NCBI GenBank assembly: GCA_008632985.1
Contig: QPGO01000190.1
Span: 121,495-141,494 of the forward strand
Direction: 5' to 3'
DNA from: Psammoneis japonica
Taxonomy: Eukaryota
DNA length: 20,000 nt
Part shown: piece after piece, positions 1-20,000 of the stretch
Position numbering within the stretch: the stretch's first letter is position 1
How the letters are laid out: each line of letters begins with the position of its first letter
Notes under the pieces: generated by a model
The model's input: the letters and a program-made list of their open reading frames with translations, nothing else
Databases searched by the model: none
What the model was told of the DNA's origin: nothing
Program-made: the position numbers and the translations under genes

Positions 1-1
1 G

Positions 2-124: not shown

Positions 125-140
125 GTATCAACGCCTCTCA

Positions 141-880
141 TCACAGGGCCAGATAGTCACCAGACAAATCCCAGTCTTCAATGTGCTTCCCGCTTTCAAA
201 CCCTTTTGCCAATGTTGCCTTTAACAACCTCCTGGCAGTATCTTCCGACTTCACGAGTGTGCTTTCTTGGGAAGTGTGGAAGAATTTTCGTACTTTCTCG
301 TCCAGATCATGGCATTCAGTAAGCGCCGTCGTCATGGTTGCCGCTAGTAGGGTGCGTAGTTGAGGTATTCGACACTATATTTACCGCAATCTTCTTGCGA
401 TAGCGCCCGTTGAAACATACTAGCATCTATCTTCGCCTTACCAGCGCAACAAATTGACATTGTTGGAAACGGCTCTATCGCACATAGGGAAGATATGTTG
501 ACAACGACGAAGACAAAATGTGGAGGCGATGAAGGTGGGGTGCCCGACGACTTCTTGATCTATGATCTCCTGAACGAAACGACACTACTACAAACTCGAT
601 CTCACATTGAGACCAGTAGCCTCCTGGAAATTCCTTACAGACTCAAGTTTTAAGTAGGAGCCCAGAACGCCAAGCGTCCCTGCTTTGTTTATTACATGTA
701 GTATGACAAGTCAAATCGACAGAATGAAGAAGATTCCTCTTCCAGAAATCTATCAATTTACTAAGCCAATCTATCCGGCTCGGACTGGTCAATTGCATTT
801 TCACTAACTTCGAATGTTTGATGAGCTCGTGTTTCGTTTAGAAGCAGTCGTTCAGTCTCAAACAAATTGTCCTGCGACCA
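141..880 (-). pseudogene. Sepiapterin-reductase-like short-chain dehydrogenase pseudogene, copy 1, 5'-truncated
   Basis: Minus strand gives VINKAGTLG (NNAG motif), LNVRSSL* (in-frame stop), PFPTMSICCAGKA (YxxxK motif with Tyr as Cys, TGT at 449-451) and FESGKHIED. The N-terminal TGxxxGxG segment is missing because unrelated sequence begins at ~885. Confidence 0.8.
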
Positions 881-2174
881 CGCCACAAATCAGGATCTAC
901 TCTGATGCAATCCCAACCATCGTCGAGCACACGCGGCATGTGGCAGGCGGAACGATCATGAACATGGACGGTCGGCATGCGTTTTGTCTGAGTGACGTTT
1001 TCGTCAGTGCATCTTGTTTCTCTAGAAACAAACTTCTCTTCGGAGATTTTGAGTGTGTTTGTCGGGGTTCTTACATTCTCGAACAGCCCGAGGTGAAATT
1101 CGATCCGTTCTTCTCCCGCGTGCTCGCAAAGTCACTGAGCGGTGCTGCCAAATGATCTTCTGTTCTCCCTCTTTCTCACACACCCATTGCTCTTTGGACT
1201 TTTGTGCTTTGTGATGCAGGCTTTCGGTTGTCGCTCAAGGGTGACCAACACTGTCTCAATTTAATTTTACCCGACTTGACCAAAACAATGGCCAGTTGCT
1301 GGGGCATGGACGAATGCTGTCAACGGATTCTTCAGCACCGGTGCAAAAAATCTGTGTAGTGCAAAGTGGTTCTTAAAAACTTGAAGTCTGCAAGGTGCTT
1401 AAAAAACAAAGGAAATGCTGCTGCACCGCACCCAATGCATTGTTGTAGAAATCCGTGAACTGGATGATGGGTGGTTGTTGGGCAGGCGCCCTGCGTGTGT
1501 TTGTCTGGTTACGATCTGCCTGTTTTCGTGTGAAGAGGACATGGGTTAAATTCCATGGACATTTGGGCGCAACTTTAGAGTGGCACTTGAGACGACACGA
1601 CACAATGTGCCTTGCATTTTCCATCATCATTTTCACAATGCCAGTGTTTCCCTTCATGTTCGAAACCATGAGTGCGGTTTGCTTGTCACAGTCAGCACCA
1701 TCCTGTCAAATCCTTGGTCACACATGGAGGAATCGCAGCCGTGTCACCCCAAGATGCGGTGGCAAACAGCGGTCTGGTTGCACGACAATCAAGCAGCTTG
1801 CTTGCTTGTGTGCATCTGCCAAATCCTTGACTGCTGTGAGTGACTTCTTTGTCCATTTGTGCTGAGCTGGGACACACGGCATTTTGTCGCATTTGGCGAC
1901 ATTTTCTTAAATGAGTTGATGATTTGTCGTGAAAAGACGTGAATTGCGACAAAATGTCCGGGTTGGCGACAAACGGGACAGAAACATTGTTCAATTGAGT
2001 TTTAAAATGATCAATGTCATTTATGACCAACCTGCACTTTGGCGATGTCGTTTCAACAAGCGGGGCAATTGACAGAATTTGGCGGTCGATGTCATCGACG
2101 AAAATTCATCCGACAAATTTTGTCGCGGACATCCGACAAATTTGTCGGATGTCCGACAAAATTTGTCGGCATGC

Positions 2175-2295
2175 AACACGACAAGACACAACATGACACG
2201 ACACGACAAGACACGACACGACACGACACGACAAGACATGACACAACAAGACACGACACGACACAACACGTCACGACACGACGACTCACGACTCA
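2175..2295 (+). repeat. (ACACG)n-type pentanucleotide microsatellite inside the TIR element
   Basis: acacgacaagacacaacatgacacgacacgacaagacacgacacgacacgacacg... Confidence 0.9.
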
Positions 2296-2508
2296 CGAAC
2301 GAAACACCCACGCCCCCCGCACACACCAACCGCTAACGTCTCCGTTGACACTGTGTCTCTTTTGCATGATGATGCAAAGCGACGATCATGCCGCTCTCGG
2401 CGGTCTCCAATGTTTCATCCACAATCTCGTGGAGACGGCACGTCCACACGACTGGGCACTTCTGAATGTTGGGGAGCGTTGCATTATCGGCATGTCGCAA
2501 ACGTCCGT

Positions 2509-2692
2509 CTGTCGGCGTTTGTCGGCTCTTGTTGGCGTTTGTCGGCTCTTGTTGGCATTTGTCATACGTTGTCGGGGTTTGTCGGGGCTTGTCGGGGTTT
2601 GTCGGGGTTTGTCGGATGCGACAAAATTTGTCGCACGTCCGACAAAATTTGTCGCACGTCTGACAAAATTTGTCGCATCCGGCAAAATTTGT
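2509..2692 (+). repeat. 10-bp (TGTCGGGGTT-like) tandem units followed by three to four ~21-bp units containing the near-palindrome CGACAAAATTTGTCG
   Basis: tgtcggcgtttgtcggctcttgttggcgtttgtcgg...; then cgacaaaatttgtcgcacgtc repeated at 2619-2692. Mirror copies of the motif occur at 2097-2170. Confidence 0.85.
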
Positions 2693-4886
2693 CATTGACA
2701 AGTGCAGTCTTCGCCGAAAGTTAAATTCATCACATGGCACTGCAGTTGACACAACGTTTGTGTTTGGGACACGCCATTGCCAATTAAATGATGTTTTTGT
2801 CTCATTTATCGCCAACGATTGAAATTTGTCTCAAAGGGCGTTTTTCACGACAAATCGTCCAATTCATTTAAGGGAATGTCGCAATTGGCGACAAAATGCC
2901 GTGTGTCCCTGGTCTGGAAGCATGGAACAAGCCATGCCTCACTTCAATGTCATGCGTGGACCCTGCACGGCATCGAGCACATTTGCTGAAAGAAAACACA
3001 GCCCAAACGCACCACTGTGACTGGCTCTCTTTAGAGACGGGCTTTTTTGGCCAGCTCTGGTCATCCTGAATGACTCGTTGTCCACCCTTTCAGGTTTTGT
3101 CATCAAAATGAATCTCTGGAATGTGTCCCACAAAGTTGGCCACTGCAAAATCATCGTCAGACAGATCTGATGCGGACCCACCCTCTGTTTTCAATGCAGT
3201 GCAAAAATGAAGATTTAGGTGCAACAGCGGACCACAGTGGGGTGAGGCAGAGGACACCACAGGGCAACCACAGGATTCTGCTGTGCAGAGATTTGATTTT
3301 TCGAAACTTCCCTCTGACACACCGTGCGTGCATGATGTTGGGGCATGCTGCAAACACACACCATCCCACATGCCATGCCACCAGCAAATCAAAATTGACA
3401 AGACAAACCCCCATGCTGCACTGCACAAACATTTGCATTTGCCAGCAGTGGCAACAATTTCCATCTGCAATCTTGCAACAGAGAGTGGCGCAAATGCACC
3501 TTCTCAGCACTTCTTGTTTCTCTGCTGAAATTCTGTTTAAAAAAGTTTTGCTGGGTGCAAAGTCAAAAATGAGCAGACAAGTCTTCACTTGCTGCCACAG
3601 TGTGCTCGCTGTGATTCTTGGCATGGTGTGTGGAACAATGGCTCGACTGACAACTGGATGAAAATTTCAGTTCAGCAGAACCACCGCACAGTCAAAAGAA
3701 AAGAGTCATGCCACACCACCACAGCAAAAGAGCTGCTGACAAAAAGACAAACCCAAATTAAATGCTGCAAAGCAACAGTGTGCATTGAAAAAGCACATCA
3801 TCCAAAACAAGCCTCTTTCAATTCACGACGTGACACCACGCAATGTCCCAACATGTCACAGACACAAACATGATGTGCGGTCTCTGGCCACAGTGCCAGA
3901 TTCTTGGCTGCCAGCCACTCTGGCTCCTGGCAGTCTCAGCACCACTCCAAGGCCCACCATGCCAATGGCTGGCTTGCCTTCAATTTCTTGTCCCTTTGGT
4001 GGGCTGGACACTTTCTTGATGGTTGGTCAAAACATGAGAGGTGTGGATGAGTCCAAATGAGCAACTGTCCAGCGCGGCTCATTGCCAAAGACCAACACAA
4101 AGCTCAAGCCACCTCCTCACCTTGAGCACCAAGGCCAAGCCACCCCTTCCAGGAGGCTGACCACAACGGGGTTCAGTTTGCCATCGTTGGACCGATCCTT
4201 GACATTGAACAAATCCATGAAACCCCTGCAGACTCCAAGGAAAGCCAGCGGATGGTTGTGCCAACAAGCACCAGAGCAAGGCAAGCATGTGGCCAGTTCA
4301 CCCAATGTGCTCATCGAGACACAAGTTGCCAAGACACAGATGCTGCATCCCACATGGTGCACAATGCTCAAAAATCAAATTGGCAAAGGCAGCAATGTGC
4401 GGCTGAGACTCATGAGCACATTGGCACTGGAGCAACCGTTGCTGAGGGCCAACCACAAGCTGGTGGGGGGGCAAAGGTCAACAGCCCCAAACTCATCACA
4501 ATGGCATCAAAGTGTCCAAGGTTCTGCACAAAACTTGGGAGCGTTGAAATGTGCCATGAGCACCATGGAAAGCATGTGCCAAGAAGTGAAAAGGAGCTGG
4601 GGCCCAAGATGCTCAAGGCACCCTTGGCTCCAAAGGGTGGTTGCAATTTGGTCGCGACATCGCCCAAGCACACTTGCCACTCTTAGATGTGCTGTGATGG
4701 GTTGGCGGGAAATTGTTGTTGGCGCTGGCCGCATCATCATCGTGTTGAATGTGCTTGGGTGCAACCGCCATTTCGAGCATTGTTCTGCGTGCTGTTTTGC
4801 ACGTACAAATGTGCGAAAAATTTGGACGCACCGAGACCCACGGCCCGCAAGCGCACGGCATATCCAGTTGAATCTGCTGTATCACC

Positions 4887-5864
4887 ATGTCGAAACCACC
4901 GGCTGCCAAGCGCCTTTGCGTAGACTTCTCAAGCACTGTGTTTGAGCTTGTCATTGGTAGTGGATTCTTTCCATGGTATGAGTTGAATGATGAGTGCCGC
5001 GTCGTTTCAAAAGGTTGGAACGAGGCCATTTCGACGGCGTTGAACAACGCGCCATTCTTTAAACAACTTGTTGAGCACATTGGCAAGCTCAATTGCTGCA
5101 ACAAGTGTGAATGGTGCAACCAGATTTATAGTGAAAAAAGTCGTCATGTATTTTGTATGACAAATGCTGGCAGTGATGAAAGGGCTCTAAAGGAGAAGGA
5201 TCCGCGCTGCCAAGATTCGTTCGATTCGCTTTCTAGCTTTGAGAAGGCGAGGCGATTGTATCTATTCCATGCAAAATGCATTTCCAACCTCCTGTCATTC
5301 TATGGAGAAGAGCTCTCTATAGAGGAATCGCTCTGTGCCCGCTATTGCATTCCTCATGATTGGTTCTGTGGCATGACCAGTCTTCGCGATTACAATCCAA
5401 ATGCCCATTGGCTCTTCATGGGCCTCGTCGAGCTACACATTGCCAAGATCGACTTGGCGCAAGGAACTTACTGGTATAAGCCTGCCTTTGCTGGTAGAGA
5501 ACGTAGTGCTGGGCGATTCACTGGGTCTTCCTATTATGGTTGGACTCACGACATTGTATTAGAAAAGCTCAACGGCGCTCCCCACGAAGCGGATGAGCGC
5601 AGCTTTGATGCTTTTTATGTAACGCGACGATCAGGAGAAAGGGGACGCTGGTACAAATCACAATTCAATCATCTGGAGGATATTATCAAGGGAATGCTCA
5701 ACGAGCGTGATTTGGTGGCCGATCAGTTGCTTGGAGAACAGTTGGCGAACCGCATTGACATTATGCACAAGGCACGCGATTCCATGATTCCTCGTCTCCC
5801 CGACATTTTCCCACTCGAGTGGATGCCAGTCTTTGAAGACGACTATATGTACGCGATTCCATGA
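4887..5864 (+). CDS. Hypothetical protein, 325 aa, with a possible divergent N-terminal F-box-like motif
   Basis: Intact ATG-to-TGA ORF with normal composition (14 Tyr). N-terminal PPAAKR (NLS-like) and VFELVIGSGFFPWYELNDECRVVSKGWNE resemble the F-box '..VSK.W' signature. The domain call is weak. Confidence 0.7.
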   Translation: MSKPPAAKRLCVDFSSTVFELVIGSGFFPWYELNDECRVVSKGWNEAISTALNNAPFFKQLVEHIGKLNCCNKCEWCNQIYSEKSRHVFCMTNAGSDERALKEKDPRCQDSFDSLSSFEKARRLYLFHAKCISNLLSFYGEELSIEESLCARYCIPHDWFCGMTSLRDYNPNAHWLFMGLVELHIAKIDLAQGTYWYKPAFAGRERSAGRFTGSSYYGWTHDIVLEKLNGAPHEADERSFDAFYVTRRSGERGRWYKSQFNHLEDIIKGMLNERDLVADQLLGEQLANRIDIMHKARDSMIPRLPDIFPLEWMPVFEDDYMYAIP

Positions 5865-6076
5865 TTCCTCGACTGATGAGAGTTTCAGTGGATCATTATT
5901 TGTTTGTGAATAAGTGTCCGGGATGAATAGCGACGCGAATAATGATGCAAAGGGATTGTGCATATCACCGGCAATTTTCTGCATCGATCTAAATTGTACT
6001 ACCGTAGCTTTCGCTGTATGGGGTCGATTCGACGATAGGCTATGTAGCGATACTTGCATTGGCTTACTAGTTTAGA

Positions 6077-7769
6077 TTGTTTATATATACATATATTGAT
6101 TCTATGCTGCTGCGTCGGAAAGGAGTTGAAATGTACCCTAAACATGCTGCGGATGTTGGAACAAAACTTCCGTTGGGCACCAAATGCAATCGCTCTGTCC
6201 ACCAGCAGCGACTGCACCAGACAGCATTCCAGCGGTTGGGACGCTATGTGAGAGCTAGCGAGAGCGATTGACGGATCAGGAGCAGTGCATCTGCCAAGCT
6301 CTTTACGCTTCATGTCTCTCACGTATCGGTCAAGACGAGCTGGCAGTTGTTTCTTATGATGCGTCTCTTTCACTCAAGCAATTTCTTACCGAAGAAACAC
6401 TTCAGGAAGTTCTTCAAGGAAAGGCGAAAACTCTTCAAAGACTGATGCGCTACGAGGAAGCCAGGAATGTCTTCTTCAGAGGTCAAATAACGGGATACTA
6501 TACGTGTGCGCTGCAGCAACTTGCTCCCTTCGGTTGGGTGCTACAGAATGGGCAATCCGAGTTTTGAGCATGTTTTGTGAGGACATAAAGAATAGCAGTA
6601 GCTTTCGTGCATAGGTAATACTCGGAGCCTTATTGGCCGTTGTCGATCACGAGAATGTCGACCATGAACGAATTGGTAGACAACTTGCACAGGGAGCCGT
6701 AGCTGAGCCACTCTTCTCCTGGATACATGCAGTCTGGCAGCTAAAACACGGTGACAAGCTAGCCCTTCTTAACACGTCCGGCGAACGGCAACATAACGTA
6801 GATTGCCACTTGCTTCTGGCAAAGGCCAACCAATCACCATTTGATTTTCCTTCCTTGATCCAATTGGATAATGAGGTCATCCTTCATCGGCTGTTAGCGA
6901 GCAAAGATGACGGTTCGGATGGAAATTTCTGGCCCACTGGATTCGTGCTCCCGGAGGAGTCTGCGAAACTACGGGCGCATATTGCTGATTCTCAAGCCAT
7001 GTCATCTTTGCATAATCTCAAGACGTGGATTCTGAAGAAACCATGTGGATACGGATCTCATGGCAACAAGTTGGTTACAAGTACTGAAGCAATCCAGACC
7101 TCTGAGAAAATGCTGCCGGGTCAAAGATGCCTTTGCCAACTAATGGTAGAGCCGCCTTTGCTTATTGAGGGCAGGAAGTTTTCATTGCGGATTTACGTTG
7201 TATACTTTTCGGAGTCCGCTTCAGGTGACGACCAATGTGGATATCTTTTTGTCTCGGACCAGGGTTTAGTTAAACTTGCTTCTGTCCCCTACGAAATTGG
7301 ACAAGATAGAAATGACGATCGAGCTCACATGACGAATTCTGGTCGAGAAGAGGCCATGACCAAGCAAGACTTAGTGTATCTCCGAGGGAATTTTGACAAA
7401 TGAGGCTTCCATTACAGCAAATTCTGGGTTTGCACATACAAATCGATACCATCAGTCATAGGAAGTTACGTCAAGAATATAATGGTAGAGGGAACGGTAT
7501 CCTATCGGTCTCGACTTGCCACTTTTGGAACCCCCAAAATCTTGGGCTTTGACTACGTGCTCGACGCTAACGCCACACCGTTTTTGATCGAGGTCAATCG
7601 CTTTCTCAGCCGGGAAGCAAGGGACAGAGGTGAAAAGTCTGTCAAGCGTAGAGTGGTTTTGGATGCATGGTTCTGTGCTGCCGACATACTTGGTGTGGAT
7701 CCATGGGATTGTTTAGGGATACAGCATCAACTGCTGAGTATAGACACCTTTCATCACGGCGCCAGTTAG
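6077..7769 (+). pseudogene. TPR plus tubulin-tyrosine-ligase (TTL/TTLL, ATP-grasp) family gene, disrupted
   Basis: TTL motifs WILKKPCGYGSHG, CQLMVEPPLLIEGRKFSLRIYVV, GLVKLAS, HMTNS and ILGFDYVLD..PFLIEVN are present. An in-frame TGA at 7401-7403 separates same-frame ORFs 6633..7403 and 7482..7769. Upstream fragments in other frames include TPR-like KAKTLQRLMRYEEARNVF. The 5' boundary is uncertain. Confidence 0.82.
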
Positions 7770-8593
7770 TCACCAAACAAACCGCAGTCTTCAACGTGCT
7801 TCCCGCTTTCAAACCCTTTTGCCGATGTTAGATTTACCAACCTCCTGTCCGTATCCTCCGCCTTCACTAGCGTGCCTTCTTCGTGAGAAGTGTGGAAGAA
7901 TTGTCGGAGTATCTCATCCAGTTCATCGTATTCATTAAGTGCCGTCGTCGTGTTAGCCTCACACGCTAGGTGAGCGTAGTCGAGGAAAGTGACACTACGT
8001 TCACCGCGATCTTCTTGCGCTATCGCATAGTGAAACATATCTCTCTCCGCCTTGCCAACACAATAAATTGACACGGTTGGAAACGGCTCTATGGCACAGA
8101 AGGAAGACTTGTTGACAACGACAAAACGTGGAGGCGATGAAGGGGGGTGCCCGATGGCTTCTTGATCTATGATCTCCTGAACAAAACGAACTCTAAGCCA
8201 CAAACTGGATGTCACATTGAGATCAATAGCCTCCCAAATCTCATACAGACTTAAGTTTCAATTAGGAGCCCAGAAGCCCAAGCGTACCTGCGTTGCTTAT
8301 TAGTATGGCACGATCAAATCAACTGAATGAAGAAGATTCCTCTTCCAGAATTTATCCAGCTCGGAAAGGTCAAATGCAATTTCCCCAAATTCGAGTGTGT
8401 GATGAGCTTGTGTTTCGTTTGGAAGGAGTCTTTCAGTCTCAAACAAATCGTCCCGCGACCGCACTACGAGAGACACTCGAATGATGGATATTTCATCAGA
8501 AGCATTTTTAACAAAAGAAGCTGCGATGGCACGTCCAATCCCTCTTGAGGTCCCAGTAGCAATAACTAGCATGGATGACACAATGCGAATCAC
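7766..8593 (-). pseudogene. Sepiapterin-reductase-like short-chain dehydrogenase pseudogene, copy 2
   Basis: VIATGTSRGIGRAIA (Rossmann TGxxxGxG), frameshift near 8300 into LISNAGTLG followed by a stop, then NVTSSLWL, VVNKSSFCAIEPF, IYCVGKAERDMF (YxxxK) and FESGKHVED. These match the sepiapterin reductase pattern (YCAGKAARDM; FxSGxHVD). Confidence 0.85.
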
Positions 8594-8806
8594 AACGCCA
8601 CCATTTCTTCACAACGAGATCAACTCCAATGTGTTTTGCGACGGACGCGTTGTGACGGCCTCTTCGGTCTAACTTGCCAAGCTGGAAGAGCGAGAGAAGC
8701 GCGCTATCCTTATAAAATTACTCGACTGAAATCAATGACTCACCATAATGTACGGTGGTAGCAACATCGAAAAAAGGTTAACTTCTTCAGGCTTCAGAAG
8801 ACGAAT

Positions 8807-9981
8807 CTAGTACCCATCCGGCCACTGGACAGGAAGCATCTTGTCATCGAAACACTTCCCTTCATCTAACCCGGTACCCCAGGTAACTCGCTTGGCAAGA
8901 ATTTGGACGCCAGCTTGTTCAGCTTTACGAAGATACTTGCAAAGGAAGGACAAGCTTCGTGGTTCGGTCGAAAGGATTCGGCATCGCCTCTAATCACAAC
9001 AAATAACACGGTGGTTTTGTATCGTTCACCATTTTCCCCGCGCAGTGTGCCTTTAGCAATGCGAGTGAGCTCTTGGACGTGGTGTATGGCACGAGCCGAG
9101 ACAACCTTTTCGCCATCTGGTCCTTTTTGATTTGATTTACCCCAAGGGAATATAGCTGTTCTGCTGTACGGCTGCTGATCGCTTGCAAAGATGCACTTTA
9201 GCTTTTCAGGATTTGGTAGAGCTGAGGAAGCATAGTCGGTGTCTACCACGGTTTTCACTTCAACAATACGCTTCGTGCCATCCAACTGAGTCACTAAGAA
9301 ATCACTGCGCATATTTGCTCCGCATGGATTTCGGATTTGTGTTTGAATGCTGGACATGCGAGGCAAGTCAGGAATCAGATTGTTGCGCAGCCAGGTCTCG
9401 GCAATGCGTTCTCCAAGAGACGGGTGTGCGCCAACCCATGTGGGAGGATAAAGCGTCGGTTCGAGGTGGGATTCGTCAACGAGCAGTAATTGAGTAATGA
9501 ACTCACACTTTGGCGTTCCGTACTTGGGAGAGACTGCGTCCGCACCAATTTTTACGCCATTTCGACCACGAGCAGGCTTAAGCAAGAGCGAGGCGCCGGG
9601 AACACACTTACCACCCATGTCAAGATTTGGTACATGCGCGATGGCTTCACGTTGTTCAGCTTCGAGCCATACGTCAGCAACATATGGGCTCCTGTTGCGC
9701 TTGGAAGGCCGAGCTGTCAATTTCGCCTCAACAAGCTCCTCATCTACGGCAAGGGAGAACAGAGGATCTCGACACCCGTCGCAATCCGTTGAAATGATCG
9801 GTTCAGGAGACGCCGCCCCTCCTTTTTTCATCGTCCCCCCCAATTGAGAAGTCCTCGCCTTTTTGGCTGCGACTTTTCTTGTCACACTCGAGCGGCGCGT
9901 AGAAACCATGACAGCGAAAGATCGACCTAAATCTAGTTCAGCGAAGAGAGCAGACGGAAGGAACAAGAGCTTGACTCTCAT
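8807..9981 (-). pseudogene. sfsA: SfsA-like (sugar fermentation stimulation protein, PD-(D/E)XK nuclease fold) gene with a 1-bp frameshift near 8937 (real lesion or sequence error)
   Basis: Motifs RPSKRNRSPYVADV, AHVPN, RSDFLV, VEVKTV, AIFP, VSARAIHHVQEL and LFVVIRGDAESFRPN. After CPSFA the SfsA-like tail continues in another frame (YLRKAEQAGVQILAKRVTWG...QWPDGY*) to a stop at 8807. The start may be at 9981 or 9909. Confidence 0.85.
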
Positions 9982-10246
9982 GCGGTTCAAGAAATGGAGG
10001 ATCGTATGAAGTCTTCGTAGTAGCAACACAGAGTCTTCTCATGCGGTACCTGACAGTCATGGGCGAGAAGTTGGGAATAAAGAATCATCAGCCGACCGCT
10101 GACGGTTGCGTGAAAGTACCGTATGCGAGATGAGATAGAGAGTAGACTCCTCTAATCTGTCGTCCATCAGGTTCTGAGTTAGTTCTTGAATTTTCCCGAC
10201 CCCGCCTCCTCCCCCCAAACTCCCCACGCTACCGCGCAAAACCTCG

Positions 10247-10462
10247 CAGCCAAGACTCTAAGCCAAGCAAGGAGAGGACCTCCTTGACTGGACCGAGAGT
10301 CACCGCGCGAATGTAGGAGCGAAATGGGTTGAAGGACGGACGACGGACGAGACGAGCGGAAACGAGGCCAGCCCAAGGGATCCCCTCATTGTCTGGCAGG
10401 ATGGGAGACACCATGGCACTGTCGGAGGCGTCTCCTGGGAGATGCCAACGATGAAAATCGAA
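10247..10462 (+). repeat. Split direct repeat A1 (216 bp)
   Basis: Identical to 18203..18418 except T10314 versus C18270 (gaatgTAgg / gaatgCAgg). Confidence 0.97.
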
Positions 10463-11385
10463 TGGCTTTTCTCCCTCTCCTGTCAGTCAATGCTGAAAAT
10501 CCCTTGCGTGGTCTGCTTGCGCAGCCGGGAGTGTCTCGTGCATTGGTGCCATTTGCCACCACGCCATTTCGGCGCTATCCTGTGGATGCACCTCCCAATT
10601 TTTTTCGCTGTTAATGCTGACTACGGTCACGCCATCTTGGCGCCATGTCATGTGGGCATTGCTCCAAATCCCGACTGGGTCCGCTTGTCAGCGGGGGCGC
10701 TTCGGCGGCCGAGGATTGCCTCGCACTCTGGCCCATTTGCCACACCTTTCAACGGTGCTTTCTTACAAGGAGTGCATCCTCATATAGACGGTCTCAGCAC
10801 CATTAAAGTCCCGCATGGGCAAATGGCAGTGTGGCTTTTTCATTCCGCCTGCCACTTTCTCCTGAACGCCCAGGTTGGGCCTTTTTCTTTTGCGGCTCTG
10901 CGGTCCATGGTCATCGCCTTCCCCCTCGGCGTGTCCAATTTTTTCCCTCTCCTGGGGACACAGCATGTTTAGGCTTGCACACCAGCACACCACAGCATCG
11001 GAATTGCCAGTTCTGTCTGGTCGATGTCAACTGCACACACACATGTGCATTCCCGCGAGGGTTTGGTCAAAACGAAATTTGCCACCACGTTTCGGGGTTT
11101 TTCGTCTTCTCGCGAAATGCGCGCCATCACGATGATGAATGGTGATGGAAACTGACCCGTCACATGGGGATGAAACTTGGATTTCTTTCTTGTCTCCATT
11201 CATTGGACAAGCACAGGAATCGCGAAGGGTTGCGTTCGCGGAACTGACACGGTGTCAGTCAACGCTTGTCCTTCTCGAGCAATTTCCACACGCTGGTGTC
11301 CTTCACTTTCCGGTGAGATTGCTCTCACTTTTCCTTTTTTGCGATCGGACGAGCCTTTAGTTTTCTGCTGCCCTGTTGTTCCACC

Positions 11386-13663
11386 ATGAACCAAGCCCAC
11401 GCTGCTGCCATCAACCGCGGCAAGCTCTCCGCTGCAAAGCGGTGCTCCGCCGCTTTGCCCTCCTCCACGGGTGCGATCGAGTCTGTCTCAACTGCTGTCC
11501 ACCGTGACACCCAGAAGGAGCTACGAGACCATGTCTTCGCGACCTCTGACCTTTTCTACGCGGTCCACAATCGCAAGATTGCGGTTGTGGCGAAACCTCG
11601 CCCCAGGCAGCACGCCGATGGGAATCTAAAGTGGATCGGGAGCCTCTCGGATGCGATCGGCGAGGTCATCCCGATGTCTGGTAGTTGGACTCGTTTCCAA
11701 GGCCATGCAACCACTCTAGTCCCCCAGGGCACTGTGGACACTTGTCACCTGCCCAAGTGCGAACTCAGCCCTGACGAGATTGACGGTCCCGTTGGCAACG
11801 ACGGCAACAACGTGCCGGCGTCGATGGGTCGTCTCCATTTTGGGAATCCTTCCGGACCGGCAGAGCGTCCCTCCATCGTCGCGCTCCCGATGTTCCTGCC
11901 AATCCCAACGGGCGTCACCCTTCCTGCTGACTTCGACCCAGCAGATCCCCCGGCATCCCTTGCCACTGACTTTCCGCTTGGAGCGGTTTGGGCTCAGGGC
12001 ATGTCCTGGTTGCTTCAGCACAACGCTTCTGTCTCTGTCACGGAAGGCGGCCCCATGTTTGAGCAGAATGGCTTTGCAATTGTCGATGAGTTTGCAGGCC
12101 TCGAGATCTGTGATCTCGACAACAATGACGCACAGATGCTCCAACCTCTGACGGATTGGTGTGCACCAGTCAAGACCACGATGGACGCCTTTGCAGATGA
12201 GACCTGGAGGCAACTCGGTGGAGAAGAGCCCGCGCAGATGCAAGCTCCCGCCGCCCCAGCCCAAGGTGCCAATGGACAGGTTCCGAACTGTGCCATCCAT
12301 GTCCCACGCCAGGACTCGAAGAAAGAGTCAGACCAGAAGCTGAGGGCGCGCGACATTGGTCACCGCTGGTCACTCTGTGCGTTCCGAGCGACTGCTGGTG
12401 CAGGTCCGGAGGACCCGCCTGTGATCATCGTGGGCGAGCTTACGGACCAAGCGGCTGAGATTCTTCAGGACACGTCGGCTGCCAATGCAAACCGTGACCT
12501 CGCGGATCTTGTTAAGATGGCTGTTGTTGCATCAGCCCGTGGTGACAGCAGTCTAGACGCTGGGGTCGACTGCAAGTGCACCATCGTCAACAAGGCCTGC
12601 ACGGACTGTTTCCACGGCTTTAATGTGGTTGCGGAGCCCCCGCAGCATGGCCAGGCTTCGCACCGCACGAAGCTGTCTGTCCTTCCTTTTCTTCCCCCGA
12701 AGACTGCATCATCTTCATTTGCTGGTCTCGAGGACGAAGGGAGGGTGCTCCATCGGGTGCTTGCCAATGGCTCCGACTGCAAGATCCCCGATGACGTGAA
12801 GGCAAGCAACCTTTGTGTCCAAGGAAGGATGGACACCGCCAGCAATCTGTGGTCAGTGCTTTGCAACTTTTGCTGTGTCCTTGGATGCTGGATCAAGGAC
12901 TTCGACAATGCGGAGCTGTGGAAGTCCCTGGATGCGCACGCAAAGGTTCTTTGGTCGCACCCGGGCCGCACGTGGCTCAAGAATCTCGAGGACCCCAAAC
13001 CAGTCGTCGCCAGCATCCCAGACAATTTCCAGACTATCATCAAAGTCCACTTTGAGATCGGAGACTCTCCATTGTGCCGTCAGGCGGTAGAAACCGAGCG
13101 TCCACTGAGCCATCAGATGGCAAAGGACGCTCGCACTCTGGTCGTCCCTCATTGCGGACCTCAAAACCGCGATCACGCGGGGCAAGCCTCTGGCCTTTGC
13201 GGAGGCATCTACGTTGGCCCTTGTCCCCCTGGGCAACTCTGTGTTCCTCCCTGCTAGCAGAACGAAGGATGATGCGACCAAGTCTGGTCAACCTCCGAAT
13301 GAGAAGCTGCGCACGGGGGAAACAGATGACAAAACCGCCAAGCTCTGCAAGGCGATGGGCATGCTCAATTTTTCGGGCACGAAGCGGCTCCCGACCAGCC
13401 CCGTTTTCTACAAGAAGCGAGGATCAGATCAGGAGGAACGTTTCTGCATGTGCTTTTGCACTGAGGGGCACTTCTGCAAATTCCCCAACTGCCCGAAGCC
13501 CCACCCATCGTCACTCTCCAAGATTCCGAGTGAAAAGAGGGATGCCTTTTGCCAATTTGTCAAAGACACCCCGGGACTCGATTTTGTTCCTGGCAAGGGC
13601 CCAGACGGTGCGTCCCAATCAGGTTCGAATGTTCCTAGTCTGTGCACTGCACCCTGTTGCTAA
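11386..13663 (+). pseudogene. gag: Gag-like ORF1 of the YR retrotransposon, frameshifted at ~13145, with a C-terminal CCCH-like zinc finger
   Basis: First long ORF of the element (11386..13257). Protein-like sequence continues in the frame of ORF 13214..13663 (LIADLKTAITRGKPLAF...RFCMCFCTEGHFCKFPNCPKPHP). The assignment rests on position and the Cys/His finger. Confidence 0.75.
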
Positions 13664-13744
13664 TGCAGTGTTGTCCAAAACTGTTCTGTTTTTCACTCTC
13701 GATTAGTCTACGTTATCCCTGACAGGTCCGTTCGTCTCATCGCA

Positions 13745-16606
13745 ATGGATGTCGACGACGACAGCGATCAGGAGTGCGAGGTGATCGATGCAGAGCAAGA
13801 CGAGACCGGAATGAGTGTCGCTGAAGCCATCCCAGCTGTTGATGCTGCACTTGCCACGTCGGTGAAGGAGCCGCACCCGAGCCTGTGCCGAGGTGCGGTC
13901 ACGCCGCAGCCTCCCGTCAACGAGAATGAGCTGATCGAGCCATTCCCCACCTTCTCCATGGTCCACAAGAAGAAAGGGACCGATTTGATTCCTACAATCA
14001 ATGACGGCTTCAATGAGAAGGCACGTGAGCACTTTGCCAATGCGGAACCATCGCCGGGCATGCGTGCTAAACTGGACCAAAAATTCGGCAAGGAAAACTT
14101 GAATCAATGTTTCTTGTCGGAAGCGTGTTTGCGTCATGTGTTGCCACCGCTGTTGAAATCTGGGTGCATGTCGCCACCGGTTGATTGCATGAGTGACTCA
14201 TCTGCCCAAATCGTCTTTGGGGGTGATTGGGAGAACTTCGGAGCGGCCATCCCGGAAGCAGCCGAGCCCATGAGCCTGGTCCGGGAATGTGGCGACATCG
14301 ACTTTAATCCTCTCCAAGGCTGCCCCGAGGGATGGCAAAAAGAGACAACGGTCAGTGTGGATAGAGCTGCGATGACAACTGCCGCGTTGTTGCATTTTGA
14401 TGGTGACCCAGCAAACCTCGTTCGCTGGGTTGGCGGACCGCACGTCGGTGAACACAGACACACGCAGAAAATGCTCCGCTTTCTACAAGGTCGTGCACCC
14501 GACGAGACAACAGCACACGTTCGCCGCATCTTCCAAGACGGGGCGCCAGCGAAATGCAACACTGCTTTCACTGAAGCCAACTTCCAAGCAGCTCTCAAGT
14601 GTGGAAACCACAAGACCGTCGACGCTGCACCTGACAAAACATTGGCGGCAGTCGCCAAGGACAATCGCAAGGGTTTCACGCCACTTTTTGACCAGCGTCT
14701 GGTGCCGCACTTGCTGAACTGCCATCTCACTCCTCAGGGGATGGTGGACCTTGACAAGAAATGCAAGAGTCCACGCCCCATCTTCGACAGCACGATGCGA
14801 GCGACTCCGGGTGGCATGGCAATCAACGATGCGTTGGACCTCAAGCACGAACCGCCGATCACGTTCCCATCAGCGGAAATGGACTTTGTGGTGTGGACAT
14901 GGAACATGAGAACATCCCACCCACACGAGGAGATCCACCTCGGCGATGATGATGTGAGTGGCGCTTTCCGCAACCTGAAGCACCACCCGAACCTCGTCGG
15001 GATGCATGCCAGCGTCCAGTGTGGACTGGGCGTCCTGCAGACGGGTTGTGCCTTTGGCGATGAGACCAACCCAAGCAACTGGGACGCTGTTGCCAATGCA
15101 AGACAATGCCTTGCTCAACAATTCTGGCTGGTGCCCAACGTGGTGGAACTCACCCAGCAGTGTCTCCCGACGACATCATTCGCCGAACCTCCTGCAGCTG
15201 AAGAGGCAGCGTCATTCTGTCCTGCGGAAGCAGACGCTGTCAATCCGGGCATGTTCCTAGATGGCTGCCGTTTGCCACCAACATGCAAGCACCACGTTGA
15301 CGATGACTTCTACGGAGACATGCATGACTTGATGAAAAGAACAGTCGCTGCGAGCGCCCTGGCCGTGTGCGTTTTGTTGGGCTTCCCACGCGATGAAACT
15401 CCGGATTTCCCAAGCAAAGAGAAACTGGACACACTGTGCTCACATCTCCGACGAGCCCTGGGAAGGCACTTCAACTCAAGAGCGCTGTCGGTGGGAATGC
15501 TCCCATGCAAACGAGAACAGTTCCTTGAAACTTTGCGAGAATGGCGCGACAAACAACGGCACACACTGTTGGATGCAGCAAACCCAAATGGTCAATGTGA
15601 ACTCCATGCGCGGTGTTGTCCATGGGCTCGGCCGAATTTTTTTGCACTCCAGAACTCCACGCGGCGGGCCATGGTCGTCCAATGCGCCATTGTCAAACAA
15701 ATCATGGAGCGACAAAATTTCAAATTAAATTTTGAAACTCAACTGCCGAGTCATCTCAGAAATGGGCCACCGAGCTTGCTCGCGCGCACACAGGCCCAGC
15801 TCCTCTGTCAGCTGAAGACCGAGATCCCGATGACATCCAATGTCATTGATGTGACAAAGGACACAGTGTCCTACATCGAATCAACGCCAGACCCATGGTC
15901 AGCACCGATTGGATGTGTCACACCGCAAGTGCCACATTGCCAGGCAATTGGAGACGCCAGCAACGCAGGCGGAGGAGCCCACTGCGCAGAACTCAAATTT
16001 TGGTTCGCATTTCTTTGGGGACCAAAAACAGCGAAAGGGCTCCGGCTGAGGAAGGCCTCCGACCCAGTGCATGTCCATGTCAACACAGCAGAGTTTGTTG
16101 TCATCACACTCAAGCTGGCAGCTGTGATTGTCCGCATGGAGACTGTGACCCGAGAACGGGCCCATGAGTTCTTCCGGAACGGCGTCGTCCCACTGCACCT
16201 GGTCGTCAGGAGTCGTTCAGACAACATGGTGTCGGTCAACCGGTCCAACAAAGCAACGTCAAAGTCGCCACAGGGGCAACGATTTGTCTGGGTCTTCTGC
16301 AAATTGCTCCACCGTGCTCGTGCCAACTTCAACGGAGATCACATCTTTGGCGACGAAAATTTTGTTGCCGACGATGTCTCACGACCTTCTGTTTTTGCCT
16401 TGATCTCGCATCGCACCCATTCTGAACAGCTGTTTCGGAAGTGTCCCTTTCTGAAGACCTGGGACTGTTTCCAGCCGAGTCAAGAGCTGCTGCAGCTCCT
16501 CTCCTCACAGCTGTCTGCCAAGCACAGAATGGCACCCCAGATCCCAAGCGACTTGGGACAGCTCGTTCCCGCAGAATCCATTTCCTCTGCTTTTGTAAGA
16601 GTGTGA
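13745..16606 (+). CDS. pol: Reverse transcriptase plus RNase H (open frame, heavily mutated)
   Basis: RT motifs PRPIFD, DDDVSGAFR, GCAFGDETNPSNW and HHVDDD. DIRS-type RNase H motifs GDASNAGGGA, HVNTAEF, RSDN and HIFGDENFVADDVSR. Confidence 0.93.
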   Translation: MDVDDDSDQECEVIDAEQDETGMSVAEAIPAVDAALATSVKEPHPSLCRGAVTPQPPVNENELIEPFPTFSMVHKKKGTDLIPTINDGFNEKAREHFANAEPSPGMRAKLDQKFGKENLNQCFLSEACLRHVLPPLLKSGCMSPPVDCMSDSSAQIVFGGDWENFGAAIPEAAEPMSLVRECGDIDFNPLQGCPEGWQKETTVSVDRAAMTTAALLHFDGDPANLVRWVGGPHVGEHRHTQKMLRFLQGRAPDETTAHVRRIFQDGAPAKCNTAFTEANFQAALKCGNHKTVDAAPDKTLAAVAKDNRKGFTPLFDQRLVPHLLNCHLTPQGMVDLDKKCKSPRPIFDSTMRATPGGMAINDALDLKHEPPITFPSAEMDFVVWTWNMRTSHPHEEIHLGDDDVSGAFRNLKHHPNLVGMHASVQCGLGVLQTGCAFGDETNPSNWDAVANARQCLAQQFWLVPNVVELTQQCLPTTSFAEPPAAEEAASFCPAEADAVNPGMFLDGCRLPPTCKHHVDDDFYGDMHDLMKRTVAASALAVCVLLGFPRDETPDFPSKEKLDTLCSHLRRALGRHFNSRALSVGMLPCKREQFLETLREWRDKQRHTLLDAANPNGQCELHARCCPWARPNFFALQNSTRRAMVVQCAIVKQIMERQNFKLNFETQLPSHLRNGPPSLLARTQAQLLCQLKTEIPMTSNVIDVTKDTVSYIESTPDPWSAPIGCVTPQVPHCQAIGDASNAGGGAHCAELKFWFAFLWGPKTAKGLRLRKASDPVHVHVNTAEFVVITLKLAAVIVRMETVTRERAHEFFRNGVVPLHLVVRSRSDNMVSVNRSNKATSKSPQGQRFVWVFCKLLHRARANFNGDHIFGDENFVADDVSRPSVFALISHRTHSEQLFRKCPFLKTWDCFQPSQELLQLLSSQLSAKHRMAPQIPSDLGQLVPAESISSAFVRV

Positions 16607-17682
16607 AGTGGCATCTGGGAGATCCGGAAATGACTGTGATTGGCAAGGACCCAAAGTGCTGCCAACTGGTGCCAGCCATGTGTGCTTTGCATCTAGCTAG
16701 CGGCTCCACTCTCTGCTGCAAGAACATCTCCTCAGGTGCCATCAAGGAACATGTCCATGACATGTCAACGTTCGTGTCTCCACTTGGTTCCACGTGTCGG
16801 GACGTCCGCAAAGACAACAGCGTGGACACCAAGATGGGGTGGATCCTCAGGGGAGCATTCGATGAACTCCAACGGTGCGAGAAAGTCCCGGAAAGGCGCG
16901 AGTCACACACGTTGCTCATGCAGCAACGAGCGACGTCGACAGCAGACACTGTGCGAGAAACCGACCCGGATGCGATCGAAGTGGTCCTCGCTGACTGGTT
17001 TGAGATTGGGCCAATGGCCGGCTTGCGAAGTGTTGAATGGGCCCAATCCAATGAACACTCAGAACTGGAGAATCCAAGGCTGAACATCTTTGAGGAGACC
17101 TGCGCGTTCTGCCTCGACGACGTCCGATGCGAGACAAAAGACAAGCGCCGACACACCGGGGCGGATTGTCTTGTCCCCAAGCAAGAGGATGTCGAAAGCA
17201 TGCGTGTCATGTTCCGAGCTCAGAAGAACATGCACAATGGCGAGGAATGCCAGTTTGCTGTGAACCTTGATGGCAAGCACGACTTGGCAAAGCCGATGCT
17301 TCGCGTTGTCCGACGTTTCGTGCGGGTCCGTGGCAAGGACGACAAGATCTGCCCCCTTGCTCTCTACTTTGATCCAGAGAAGGGCAAGCACCGTCTCGTC
17401 ACGTCCAAGAAAATCGAGACCCACATGCGCCGAATTGCCGCAGAAGTGCACCACCTCGACCCGGTGAAAGACAAGAAAGCTCTTGGCAAATGGTCGGCTC
17501 ACTCCCTCCGTGTTGGAGCCTGTAATGTCCTTCACGAGATGAACTTTAGTGGCGAGCAGATTAAATGGCTGCTCAGATGGCGATCTGATGCCTTTGTGGC
17601 TTGTCTCCGCAACTGCCTGGGTCTTTCCCAGGCCCATTGTCGAGCTCTCGACAAGGCGGCACCCATGCCGTTCTTCGATTAA
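16441..17682 (+). CDS. Tyrosine recombinase (open frame; catalytic Tyr position is Cys), overlapping the RT/RH 3' end
   Basis: GLRSVEW (catalytic R), AQKN (K), HSLRVGA (HxxR) and LLRWRSDAFVACLR (W, plus the expected nucleophile Tyr seen as TGT at 17602-17604). The true start is uncertain. Confidence 0.92.
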   Translation: MSLSEDLGLFPAESRAAAAPLLTAVCQAQNGTPDPKRLGTARSRRIHFLCFCKSVKWHLGDPEMTVIGKDPKCCQLVPAMCALHLASGSTLCCKNISSGAIKEHVHDMSTFVSPLGSTCRDVRKDNSVDTKMGWILRGAFDELQRCEKVPERRESHTLLMQQRATSTADTVRETDPDAIEVVLADWFEIGPMAGLRSVEWAQSNEHSELENPRLNIFEETCAFCLDDVRCETKDKRRHTGADCLVPKQEDVESMRVMFRAQKNMHNGEECQFAVNLDGKHDLAKPMLRVVRRFVRVRGKDDKICPLALYFDPEKGKHRLVTSKKIETHMRRIAAEVHHLDPVKDKKALGKWSAHSLRVGACNVLHEMNFSGEQIKWLLRWRSDAFVACLRNCLGLSQAHCRALDKAAPMPFFD

Positions 17683-17950
17683 TTCCTTTGTGCGGATTCA
17701 ACACATCCCCTTTCCATGTGTCCTCTCTGCGTGACATAAAATCGCACACTGTTGTCCCATTGCATCTGAAATTTCAATTTTGAAATTCGAAATTTGATCC
17801 TGGCAACGTGATCGCACACATGTGTTCAGGAGGAACATTTGTTCCTCCATCATGTCTGAAGAAAATAGATTTTTTTTTCCGGCTGGCTCTGCCTCCGATG
17901 ACATGGGCGCGTTCGCAATGCTTCCAGCATTCCGCGTCGGCAGCATGGTG

Positions 17951-18201
17951 TGCACACAGTGAAAAAGGGAACCAATTGCTTGGCACTGGCGATTCCAAGC
18001 CTGGCCCCACATCCTAATTGCTTCACCTGCTGGCGACTGTTTTCATCGTGGCAACAACATGAGTCTACACACGGACATGAGCACTGCGCATGTCACAGAT
18101 GACACCAATGTGTTGCATCGACAGATGAGAGACGCTTCCACTGTGCCATGTCATCAGAGTGCAGACAGCCGAGGCGGAGGCAGGGAATCCATGGGATTCT
18201 C
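17951..18201 (+). repeat. Split direct repeat B1 (~251 bp)
   Basis: Gap-free alignment to 18438..18688 with about 23 differences, all transitions. Confidence 0.95.
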
Positions 18202-18202
18202 A

Positions 18203-18418
18203 CAGCCAAGACTCTAAGCCAAGCAAGGAGAGGACCTCCTTGACTGGACCGAGAGTCACCGCGCGAATGCAGGAGCGAAATGGGTTGAAGGACGGACGAC
18301 GGACGAGACGAGCGGAAACGAGGCCAGCCCAAGGGATCCCCTCATTGTCTGGCAGGATGGGAGACACCATGGCACTGTCGGAGGCGTCTCCTGGGAGATG
18401 CCAACGATGAAAATCGAA
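18203..18418 (+). repeat. Split direct repeat A2
   Basis: 215/216 identical to 10247..10462. Confidence 0.97.
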
Positions 18419-18437
18419 AACCCACCACTCCCTCCCC

Positions 18438-18688
18438 TGTGCACAGTGAAAAAGGGAACCAATTGCTTGGCACTGGCGATTCCAAGCCCAGTCCCATGTC
18501 CCAATTGCTTCACCTGCTAGCGACTGTTTTCATCGTGGCAACAACATGAGTCTACACACGGATGTGAGTGCTGCGCATGTTGTAGACGACACCAATGTGT
18601 TGCATCGACAGACAAGAGACGCTTCCACTGTGCCATGTCATCGGAGTGCAGACAGCCGAGGCGGAGGCAGGGAATCCGTGGGGTTCCC
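18438..18688 (+). repeat. Split direct repeat B2
   Basis: Gap-free copy of 17951..18201 (offset 487). Confidence 0.95.
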
Positions 18689-19063
18689 CCTGTGGTGCAG
18701 TGGGGGAGCTGTGTGTGTGTGCGTGTGGTTGTGTGCACACGGCTTCGCCGTGCGTTGAGTTTTAATGTTAATGTCCACACGCACGTGCATGTTCCACAAG
18801 CAAAAATTCCTGTTCCACAGCTCCCCTAAAACTCTAACCACCAAAAACCGAGGGGTTGGAAGCGCACTTTCGGGAGCTCTTTTTCTCCGCACAAAAAACA
18901 CGCGTTTCGTCGACTCGACCATGATGATGCCTCGTGGTTCTTCCCCATCGCCTTCCCAGGACGCCGATCCCACTGACACCGTTGCCAATGACACTGATGC
19001 AACAGGTGATGTCATTGTTCCGGTTCTCGTGGGTGTGATGCGCACAAAATAAGATGCTGCAAA

Positions 19064-19575
19064 CTCACACTGTTGTTTGCATGCTCCACCGCCTCCCACA
19101 GATGCTGTCACGAATTCCAACACCGCACCTGCGTTTCGGGCCCCCAGCATGCCCGATGCTGTCACTCCCACCCTTGCTGCTGCAGGCGCTGTTGATGCTG
19201 TCACTGTGTTTTGCCAATGACGTCCACAATGAAATGTCAACATCTCACACTTCTTTCATTCTCGCCCCACCGCCTCCCACAGACACCATCACGAATTCCA
19301 ACACCGTGCCTGCGTTTCGGCCCCCTGGCATGCCCGACACTGTCACTCCTGCCCTCACTGCCGCAGGTGCTGTTGATGCTGTTGTTGTCTTTTTGCCAAT
19401 GACGTCCACAACGAAATGCTTGTAACTCACACTTCTTTCATTCTCGCCCCACCGCCTCCCACAGATGCTGTCACGAACTCCAATGCCGCACCTGCGTTTC
19501 GGCCCCCTGGCATGCCCGACACTGTTGGTCCCACCCTTGCTGCTGCAGTTGCTGTTGATGCTGTCATTGTTTTTG
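19064..19575 (+). repeat. Three diverged tandem units of ~180-182 bp in a TpA-depleted block
   Basis: Units start at ctcacac (19064, 19244, 19426), and each contains ccaccgcctcccacaga...cctgcgtttcgg...gcatgcccga...gctgttgatgctgt. Confidence 0.9.
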
Positions 19576-20000
19576 CTTTGGAAGGAACACAATGGATGAC
19601 GGATGACGGCAGACCAGGAAACCCACGCAACCACGGCCTGCTGATGGACGACACATCAATGGACATGAGTGGTGCCTCTTGGTCAGCTCTCGAGTGCAGT
19701 CCAATCTTTAGAACACACAGACACATTGTGCAGCTCTCTGTAAATTAGAAACCTGACAACAATTGGATGGCAGGCATGCTTTCACAGTTTTTTAGTTTCA
19801 AGTTGGAGAGGTCAGCGAACTGGCATTTGTTTGCAGGCGACTTGGCAAGGTTTCAAATGGTGCATGTGACTTGGACACTGCTCTATTTTCCAGGACTGGG
19901 TCATTGTGCACAACTCCATAAGAGGCCACTCTCGCCGTTTGAACTCTGCATGTGATGCACAACACACTGTTTTTGTGTGTTGCCAAAATGGAGGCAGGCA

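What the first reader, a model, noticed from the sequence alone, without database searches (positions are those of the whole stretch)
16441..17682. Recombinase apparently killed by Tyr->Cys while all frames stay open
The R, K, HxxR and W catalytic positions are intact, but the nucleophile position in RWRSDAFVA[C]LR is TGT (17602-17604), one A->G from TAT. TA->TG/CA changes cannot turn a sense codon into an in-frame stop at the first two codon positions, and they erase TAA/TAG. This fits the intact-looking 953-aa and 413-aa ORFs and the many spurious long ORFs in all six frames. Such dead elements would be annotated as intact Cys/His-rich genes.
Basis: partly seen in the sequence, partly recalled or inferred. 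Interest (0 to 1): 0.7.

Follow-up and report, generated by a model that had tools for sequence, protein, structure and literature searches.

The report
TA-erasing mutation disabled diatom retrotransposon
A retrotransposon in a diatom genome lost its recombinase's catalytic tyrosine because a targeted mutation process rewrote about nine in ten of its TA steps to TG or CA without making stop codons, a process my searches found described for only one unrelated alga.

Summary
Confirmed, with corrections. Window 10243-18690 is an Ngaro-type tyrosine-recombinase retrotransposon in a diatom. Codon 17602-17604 is TGT where 106 of 107 database relatives have Tyr; copies in this genome hold Cys (13), His (5) or Tyr (3) of 21. 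The cause is TpA>TpG/CpA hypermutation of chromosomal DNA. Two independent insertions differ by 115 TG/CA double changes against 12 transversions (about 88% of TA lost, versus 10% of CpG). The change is strand-symmetric, prefers a following pyrimidine, and continued after a segmental duplication (57 of 108 TA-type sites vary in the element, 0 of 283 in the shared host flank). Duplicated host genes are spared, so homology alone is not the trigger, unlike RIP. It cannot create stops, but frames are not all intact (ORF1 frameshift, lost start codon), and extra spurious ORFs are not clearly shown. A partial form (49:2 polarity) appears in mat-metagenome relatives. The signature is published for Bigelowiella natans viral inserts (bioRxiv 2026); my eight literature searches found no diatom report. 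The scan noted it four times before on other DNA of this genome. The enzyme is unknown; a TadA/ADAT-type deaminase is most likely.

The parts
10243..10462 (+). terminal repeat A1 of the split direct repeats
   Evidence: 99% identical to 18199-18418; other insertions begin at the same point with different flanks
11386..13663 (+). ORF1, gag-like by position; split into two frames by a 2-base indel near 13144; Cys/His-rich stretch in the 13109-13663 frame
   Evidence: no Pfam hit; tblastn hits upstream of RT in three distant relatives in this genome
13745..16606 (+). reverse transcriptase-RNase H ORF, 953 aa with 2 Tyr; catalytic Asp columns kept
   Evidence: 92 relatives; the model of relative P0229 matches RT structures at E about 1e-5, with weaker RNase H matches
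16603..17682 (+). tyrosine recombinase gene; start codon position reads GTG; 1 Tyr in 358 aa
   Evidence: 107 relatives; PF00589 in 15 of 42 aligned relatives; weak Cre match of the profile over the HxxR-W-Y stretch, E=0.026
17602..17604 (+). nucleophile codon, TGT (Cys)
   Evidence: Tyr in 106 of 107 relatives; TGT x7, TGC x1, CAC x3, TAT x1 in 12 close copies
17955..18199 (+). repeat B1
   Evidence: 92% identical to B2; six TG/CA double differences among 20 differing bases
18199..18418 (+). repeat A2
18442..18686 (+). repeat B2, right end of the element
10243..20000 (.). TA-depleted domain (element plus repeats to its right); left edge falls at the element end
   Evidence: 500-base profile and TA positions
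4872..10038 (.). host genes with normal TA, used as internal control (TTL-family and SfsA-family genes among them)
   Evidence: named SfsA relatives are diatoms

Best explanation
An Ngaro-type retrotransposon with ordinary TA content inserted at several places in a diatom genome. Each insertion was then hit, as chromosomal DNA and on both strands, by a mutator that turns A into G almost only after T, best in T-A-pyrimidine. About 88% of susceptible TA steps were lost while transversions reached only about 0.07% per base. Every Tyr codon begins with TA, so Tyr became Cys or His at random, including the recombinase nucleophile, and no stop codon could arise. SHOWN: direction, context, strand symmetry, independence among insertions, continuation after duplication, and restriction to the element rather than duplicated host genes. 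INFERRED: that the Cys protein is inactive; that targeting follows silenced, CpG-methylated chromatin (TA loss and CpG decay share boundaries); and that the chemistry is adenine deamination by a TadA/ADAT-type host enzyme on short single-stranded patches (I put about 0.55 on this last step); that it serves as defence.
For: Window vs C33 insertion over 8443 columns: 115 TG/CA doubles, 58 TA-vs-TG/CA, 108 CG-vs-TG/CA, 31 other transitions, 12 transversions; CpG decay predicts only 3 doubles. The implied ancestral 286 TA gives a ratio near 0.68 (my arithmetic), equal to the median of 79 metagenome relatives. Sense-strand outcome is TG 316, CA 315; the odd copy out among three insertions is 65/51/48, p=0.22. 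Hit fraction by 3' base: T 0.51, C 0.45, G 0.28, A 0.21; flat by 5' base. Three segmental duplicates of one insertion: 57 of 108 TA-type sites vary in the element, 0 of 283 in the shared host flank, with 8 vs 6 transversions; CpG 84 of 570 vs 1 of 392. 42 of these 57 are polarised as TA-ancestral, 12 are ambiguous, 3 other. Two older host-gene duplications keep TA (0 and 1 doubles against 63 and 36 transversions). 69 of 200 sampled 1-kb genome windows have TA ratio <0.3 with mean CpG 0.38; 121 have >=0.4 with CpG 0.97. Mat-metagenome relatives give a TA-retaining outgroup: L120 vs L108 polarity 49:2, same pyrimidine preference. Neighbouring hits <40 bases apart share a strand slightly more than permuted (0.57 vs 0.51, p=0.03; 0.56 vs 0.48, p=0.01), not beyond.
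Against: No enzyme is identified: the deaminase genes found look like an ordinary inventory and no chromatin-reader fusion was seen in the ORFs examined. Methylation was not measured; CpG decay is a proxy. The uniform model misfits: 35 TA are shared by the two insertions where 3.8 are predicted, so a resistant class exists and 88% is approximate. One TA-poor block in the duplicated flank shows no TA-type variation (11 TA left). Two recombinase fragments in this genome keep normal TA and the Tyr. Most relatives elsewhere are untouched (1 of 79 loci <0.3), though one of two search patterns required the Tyr. Strand clustering is weak and three distance bins were tested. If copies were already silenced, the mutation may be a by-product rather than a defence.
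Confidence: 0.85

Rival explanations
1. Same targeting, but the chemistry runs through a modified adenine (for example methylated or otherwise marked A at TpA in silenced DNA) that then deaminates or miscodes, with no dedicated DNA deaminase.
For: Strict dinucleotide specificity on both strands and sharp domain edges suit a palindromic DNA mark; no unusual deaminase was found.
Against: No adenine-methyltransferase search was run and no modification data exist here. The 3' pyrimidine preference and slight short-range strand clustering suit a scanning enzyme. Adenine methylation in protists is usually reported at ApT (recalled, untested).
Confidence: 0.17
2. Error-prone repair synthesis (polymerase-eta-like, as in antibody hypermutation; recalled) triggered by mismatches from methyl-cytosine deamination copies A as G nearby.
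For: TA loss and CpG decay occupy the same domains.
Against: AA, the other half of the WA motif, is almost untouched: 23 of 2571 opportunities, near the 0.4-0.7% background of non-CpG G>A. TA hits per site exceed CpG hits about 20-fold (2.16 vs 0.10), so the supposed trigger is far rarer than the outcome.
Confidence: 0.1
3. The family is an active lineage with a long-standing TA-avoiding composition and a Cys-type recombinase.
For: The three close insertion lineages with full-length copies all carry TGT; 6 of 68 metagenome loci have Cys.
Against: The same column is His in 5 and Tyr in 3 of 21 genome copies; other conserved Tyr columns are random Cys/His mixtures; insertions resolve TA sites independently; the two B repeats of one element differ by six TG/CA doubles.
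Confidence: 0.03
4. Only CpG decay, or a base-calling artefact of the assembly, produces the TG/CA excess.
For: CG>TG/CA also yields Cys and His, and about 10% of CpG are lost.
Against: The changed columns are Tyr, not Arg, in relatives; CpG decay predicts 3 doubles, not 115. Separately assembled contigs of run X1 match (245 of 830 laid pieces at >=99%), and 33 of 36 listed differences inside the element neither create nor remove a TA. X1 may be the source sample and its library is not on record.
Confidence: 0.03

Closest known systems
TpA>TpG/CpA hypermutation of integrated giant-virus and virophage DNA in Bigelowiella natans (bioRxiv 10.64898/2026.01.13.699255; parts 1-4 of 5 of the main text read; supplements not seen)
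   Same: Same substitution and dinucleotide on both strands, local to foreign DNA, about 1000-fold over background; TA-poor coding sequences there are enriched for RT and DDE domains; its large target region is single-copy, in line with no homology trigger; ADAT2-type enzyme proposed, not shown.
   Different: Here a diatom (the word does not occur in that text). Near-saturating (ratio 0.08-0.13 vs 0.45 for their viral region) and about a third of sampled windows. Shown on retrotransposon copies by copy comparison, not by a mutation-accumulation experiment. A 3' pyrimidine preference and co-location with CpG decay are not in the main text I read.
Repeat-induced point mutation (RIP) of ascomycete fungi (recalled; abstract starts)
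   Same: Dinucleotide-specific transitions on both strands that disable transposons in place.
   Different: Opposite chemistry (RIP: C>T, which makes TpA and stops; here A>G, which removes TpA and makes no stops). Duplicated host genes are spared here.
Ngaro tyrosine-recombinase retrotransposons (PMC4157794, passages read)
   Same: gag-like, RT/RNase H and recombinase ORFs in order; A1-B1-A2-B2 split direct repeats downstream of the recombinase; no room for a methyltransferase domain.
   Different: A diatom-associated clade too distant for Pfam to hit the window proteins; no tree with reference Ngaro elements was built.
Engineered TadA adenine base editors (PMC13225742, four passages read)
   Same: A>G with a preference for a preceding U/T: off-target RNA edits mainly at UA motifs.
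   Different: Laboratory enzymes; the passages concern RNA off-targets. A likeness of motif only, not evidence of the enzyme here.

Membership tests
Ngaro retrotransposon | tyrosine recombinase ORF downstream of RT, same strand | tested here: met
   met through relatives, the window protein has no Pfam hit
Ngaro retrotransposon | reverse transcriptase and RNase H | tested here: met
   model of relative P0229 (pLDDT 81) matches RT structures, 5 at E<=0.001; RNase H matches are weaker; Atlas RVT_1 leads; the sequence-profile search of PDB found nothing relevant
Ngaro retrotransposon | split direct repeats A1-B1-A2-B2 with internal repeats downstream of the recombinase | tested here: met
Ngaro retrotransposon | no methyltransferase domain | tested here: inconclusive
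   only about 70 residues follow the last RNase H motif before the recombinase start, and no Pfam hit in the window protein or 5 of 92 relatives scanned; Pfam also misses the RT, so absence is weak
Ngaro retrotransposon | gag ORF | tested here: inconclusive
   position and conservation in three distant copies only; no Pfam hit
Ngaro retrotransposon | clusters with reference Ngaro RT/YR in a tree | not tested
Bigelowiella-type TpA hypermutation | A>G and T>C confined to TpA, both strands | tested here: met
Bigelowiella-type TpA hypermutation | local to viral or mobile DNA, host genes spared | tested here: met
   Pfam on 22 TA-poor ORFs: 2 RT, 1 weak other, 19 none; on 31 of 68 TA-normal ORFs (those >=350 aa): 15 host-type families, 0 mobile
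Bigelowiella-type TpA hypermutation | rate about 1000-fold above background per generation, intermittent among lines | not testable with these tools
   only a ratio to transversions (about 1500 per base), resting on 12 transversions
Bigelowiella-type TpA hypermutation | same enzyme | not testable with these tools
   unknown in both organisms; an ADAT2-like gene is present here (label from recalled motifs)
RIP | C>T transitions that raise TpA | tested here: not met
   TpA falls to 0.13
RIP | triggered by sequence duplication as such | tested here: not met
   a host flank present in four copies at about 99.7% identity keeps 282 of 282 TA; two older gene duplicates keep TA
RIP | tied to the sexual cycle and a RID-type methyltransferase | not testable with these tools
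   27 C5-methyltransferase matches in the genome, not classified

The most novel reading that the evidence does not exclude
Diatoms and chlorarachniophytes share a natural genomic adenine editor: a host TadA/ADAT-type enzyme, recruited to silenced chromatin rather than to duplicated sequence, that strips Tyr codons from mobile and viral genes. It would be an adenine-based counterpart of RIP and APOBEC defence spread across the SAR supergroup, active to different degrees in several diatom lineages, and a natural source of DNA adenine deaminase activity.
Probability: 0.35. Interest if true: 0.85.

Novelty: new member of a known kind. Interest (0 to 1): 0.6.

Why it matters
It extends a mutational signature I found described in one preprint on one alga to a second major lineage, at near saturation, and narrows the mechanism: chromosomal, both strands, T-A-pyrimidine preferred, still active after a recent duplication, not triggered by duplication alone, sharing edges with CpG decay. 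That makes the search for a natural DNA adenine deaminase testable. Practically, such dead elements keep long frames and most catalytic residues, so they can pass as intact genes and drop below Pfam detection; Tyr content near 0.2% against 2.8% is a simple flag.

Tried and rejected
Pfam on the window's element ORFs: 0 hits. PDB sequence search with the RT profile: only irrelevant hits at E>0.4. Sequencing-run search: no RNA holder listed; X2 laid on only 2 pieces, none inside the element. Deaminase inventory (PF00383: 9 matches; PF02137: 4 matches in 2 genes) gave no standout candidate; other deaminase and adenine-methyltransferase families were not searched. ORF-inflation claim: not supported against TA-retaining relatives. 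C324 was left out of the duplicate test because it shares a near-identical tract of about 1 kb with the C214 insertion, by conversion or chimeric assembly. L107 and L108 give identical counts against L120 and are counted once. From, one duplicate locus (L014) and three false motif hits were dropped to reach 21 copies; 11 of 79 metagenome loci did not match the motif pattern. The host of the mat-metagenome copies could not be fixed: one family member (L133) flanks a eukaryotic UTP20 gene 42% identical to this genome's, compatible with but not proof of a diatom. The 20 genome stretches were picked at round coordinates of 18 large contigs, not drawn at random. Literature searches found no diatom report; the library lacks most subscription journals.
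Full report
Observation. The codon at 17602-17604 is TGT in RWRSDAFVA[C]LRN. In 107 database relatives the R, K, H, R and W catalytic columns are 96-100% conserved and kept in the window copy; the Cys column is Tyr in 106, with one gap. Across the recombinase and RT proteins, at columns at least 70% conserved, the window copy keeps 3 of 13 Tyr but 337 of 425 other residues (p=3e-5); 9 of the 10 lost Tyr are Cys or His. TA observed/expected is 0.13 in the element and 0.53-0.62 in adjacent host genes.

Anatomy. Repeats A1 (10243-10462), B1 (17955-18199), A2 (18199-18418) and B2 (18442-18686) enclose three ORFs, the split-direct-repeat layout described for Ngaro elements (PMC4157794, passages). 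The window proteins hit no Pfam family, but 15 of 42 aligned recombinase relatives hit PF00589, the profile weakly matches Cre over the HxxR-W-Y stretch, and a model of an RT relative matches retroelement RT structures. The named relatives of a neighbouring SfsA-family gene are diatoms. The recombinase gene starts near 16603, not 16441; this copy reads GTG there, while 4 of 9 other copies examined read ATG. ORF1 is split by a 2-base indel near 13144.

Copies. The genome holds 62 recombinase matches. The close family has four insertion sites: the window, C33, C214, and one site present in four segmental duplicates with shared flanks. Among 21 distinct readable copies the nucleophile column is Cys in 13, His in 5 and Tyr in 3 (after dropping one duplicate and three false hits). 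Cys and His together are what a Tyr codon gives when either strand of its TA is hit.

Direction and size. Window versus C33 over 8443 columns: 115 TG/CA double differences, 58 TA-versus-TG/CA, 108 CG-versus-TG/CA, 31 other transitions, 12 transversions. A moment model gives about 10% CpG loss, which explains 3 doubles, and about 88% loss of roughly 286 TA. That ancestral count corresponds to a ratio near 0.68 (my arithmetic), the median of 79 metagenome relatives. The model under-predicts shared TA (35 seen, 3.8 predicted), so some sites resist. Outcomes are strand-symmetric (TG 316, CA 315) and independent among three insertions (65/51/48, p=0.22). The hit fraction depends on the 3' base (T 0.51, C 0.45, G 0.28, A 0.21), not the 5' base. 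AA is near background (23 of 2571), and hits less than 40 bases apart share a strand slightly more often than permuted.

Where and when. The two B repeats of one element differ by six doubles. Among three segmental duplicates, C324 left out for a tract shared with C214, 57 of 108 TA-type sites vary inside the element and 0 of 283 in the shared host flank, with similar transversion counts; CpG behaves alike (84 of 570 vs 1 of 392). So the change acts on chromosomal DNA, continued after duplication, and stops at the element's edge. Host sequence in four near-identical copies and two older gene duplicates are spared, so duplication alone is not the trigger. In 200 sampled 1-kb windows, 69 are TA-poor (mean 0.08, CpG 0.38) and 121 normal (0.60, CpG 0.97) (non-random sample). 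TA-poor ORFs hit RT or nothing; normal ones hit host families. DNMT5-dependent methylation silences young transposons in Phaeodactylum (PMC9998398, abstract); methylation here was not measured.

Frames. No TA>TG/CA change can create a stop (0 cases). TAA and TAG triplets drop about 4-fold; TGA barely changes and makes up 29 of 32 in-frame stops in other copies, as CpG decay would give. Long stop-free frames are not clearly more common than in TA-retaining relatives (3.55 vs median 3.2 per kb).

Beyond this genome. Most relatives are untouched: 1 of 79 loci is below 0.3, with a search partly requiring the Tyr. But 6 of 68 readable loci have Cys and lower TA (related loci, so p=3e-4 is optimistic), and L108 differs from its Tyr-bearing relative L120 by 49 TA losses against 2 the other way, again favouring pyrimidines. 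Three of 199 database proteins show two or more Cys/His at conserved Tyr columns. The host of these copies is eukaryotic at least for L133 and not proven a diatom.

Artefact check. Separately assembled contigs of run X1 carry the TG/CA states; 33 of 36 listed differences in the element leave TA untouched. This may be the source sample, so it tests base calling only.

Mechanism. Most likely a host enzyme deaminates A in T-A-pyrimidine within silenced chromatin, and replication fixes G. The substitution pattern, timing and targeting are shown; the enzyme, the methylation link, loss of recombinase activity and a defensive role are inferred. The deaminase genes found include ADAT2-like, TadA-like and two A_deamin genes (labels from recalled motifs), and none stands out. 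Engineered TadA enzymes favour UA in RNA off-targets (PMC13225742, passages), a likeness only.

Prior art and verdict. The same signature is reported for viral inserts of Bigelowiella natans (bioRxiv 10.64898/2026.01.13.699255; parts 1-4 of 5 read; no mention of diatoms; supplements unseen and may hold context data). Eight literature searches found no diatom report. Four earlier scan notes describe it on other DNA of this genome; they are not independent support. Verdict: real; a new member of a recently described kind; interest 0.6.

Noticed in passing
window 1300-4800: A second TA-poor block (ratio 0.10) that is also strongly CpG-poor in part, with 10- and 15-base satellites at 2151-2700. 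A search with 2900-4800 found one other, 69-79% identical place in the genome, so low-copy DNA can be affected.
   Followed up: partly
window 1-900 vs 7646-8480; L039 8600-10000 vs window 6243-7645: Tandem duplication of a TTL-family gene region, 84-94% identical, with normal TA.
   Followed up: partly
G000 C297 and C301 (L176-L178, L184, L187, L189): C5-methyltransferase genes lie inside long TA-poor blocks and are almost Tyr-free; probably carried by a mobile or viral element. Other ORFs there hit RT, an endonuclease family or nothing.
   Followed up: partly
G000 C312:60468-61355 and C340:21311-21718 (L013, L020): Two recombinase fragments with normal TA and no RT found in the stretches fetched; the C340 ORF also hits DUF1501. 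Escaped or captured pieces.
   Followed up: partly
G000 C324 vs C214 (L033, L036): About 1 kb across the recombinase gene is near-identical between two different insertions: gene conversion or chimeric assembly.
   Followed up: partly
G000 C270, C324, C287, C240: At least 20 kb near contig ends is present four times, the flank at about 99.7% identity; duplicates or haplotypes not distinguished.
   Followed up: no
G000 C79:344558-345390 and C79:88506-88676: A second A_deamin-family gene beside a TA-poor block, and a deaminase domain fused to a 2-oxoglutarate oxygenase.
   Followed up: partly
L032-L035, element positions about 2800-4200: One insertion lineage keeps more TA in a 1.4-kb patch (16 of 26 and 13 of 22 sites) and C33 keeps more at its right end (21 of 39), so hits are patchy along an element.
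   Followed up: no
window 18700-19600: GT-rich stretch and three 182-base tandem copies right of the element, also TA-poor.
   Followed up: no
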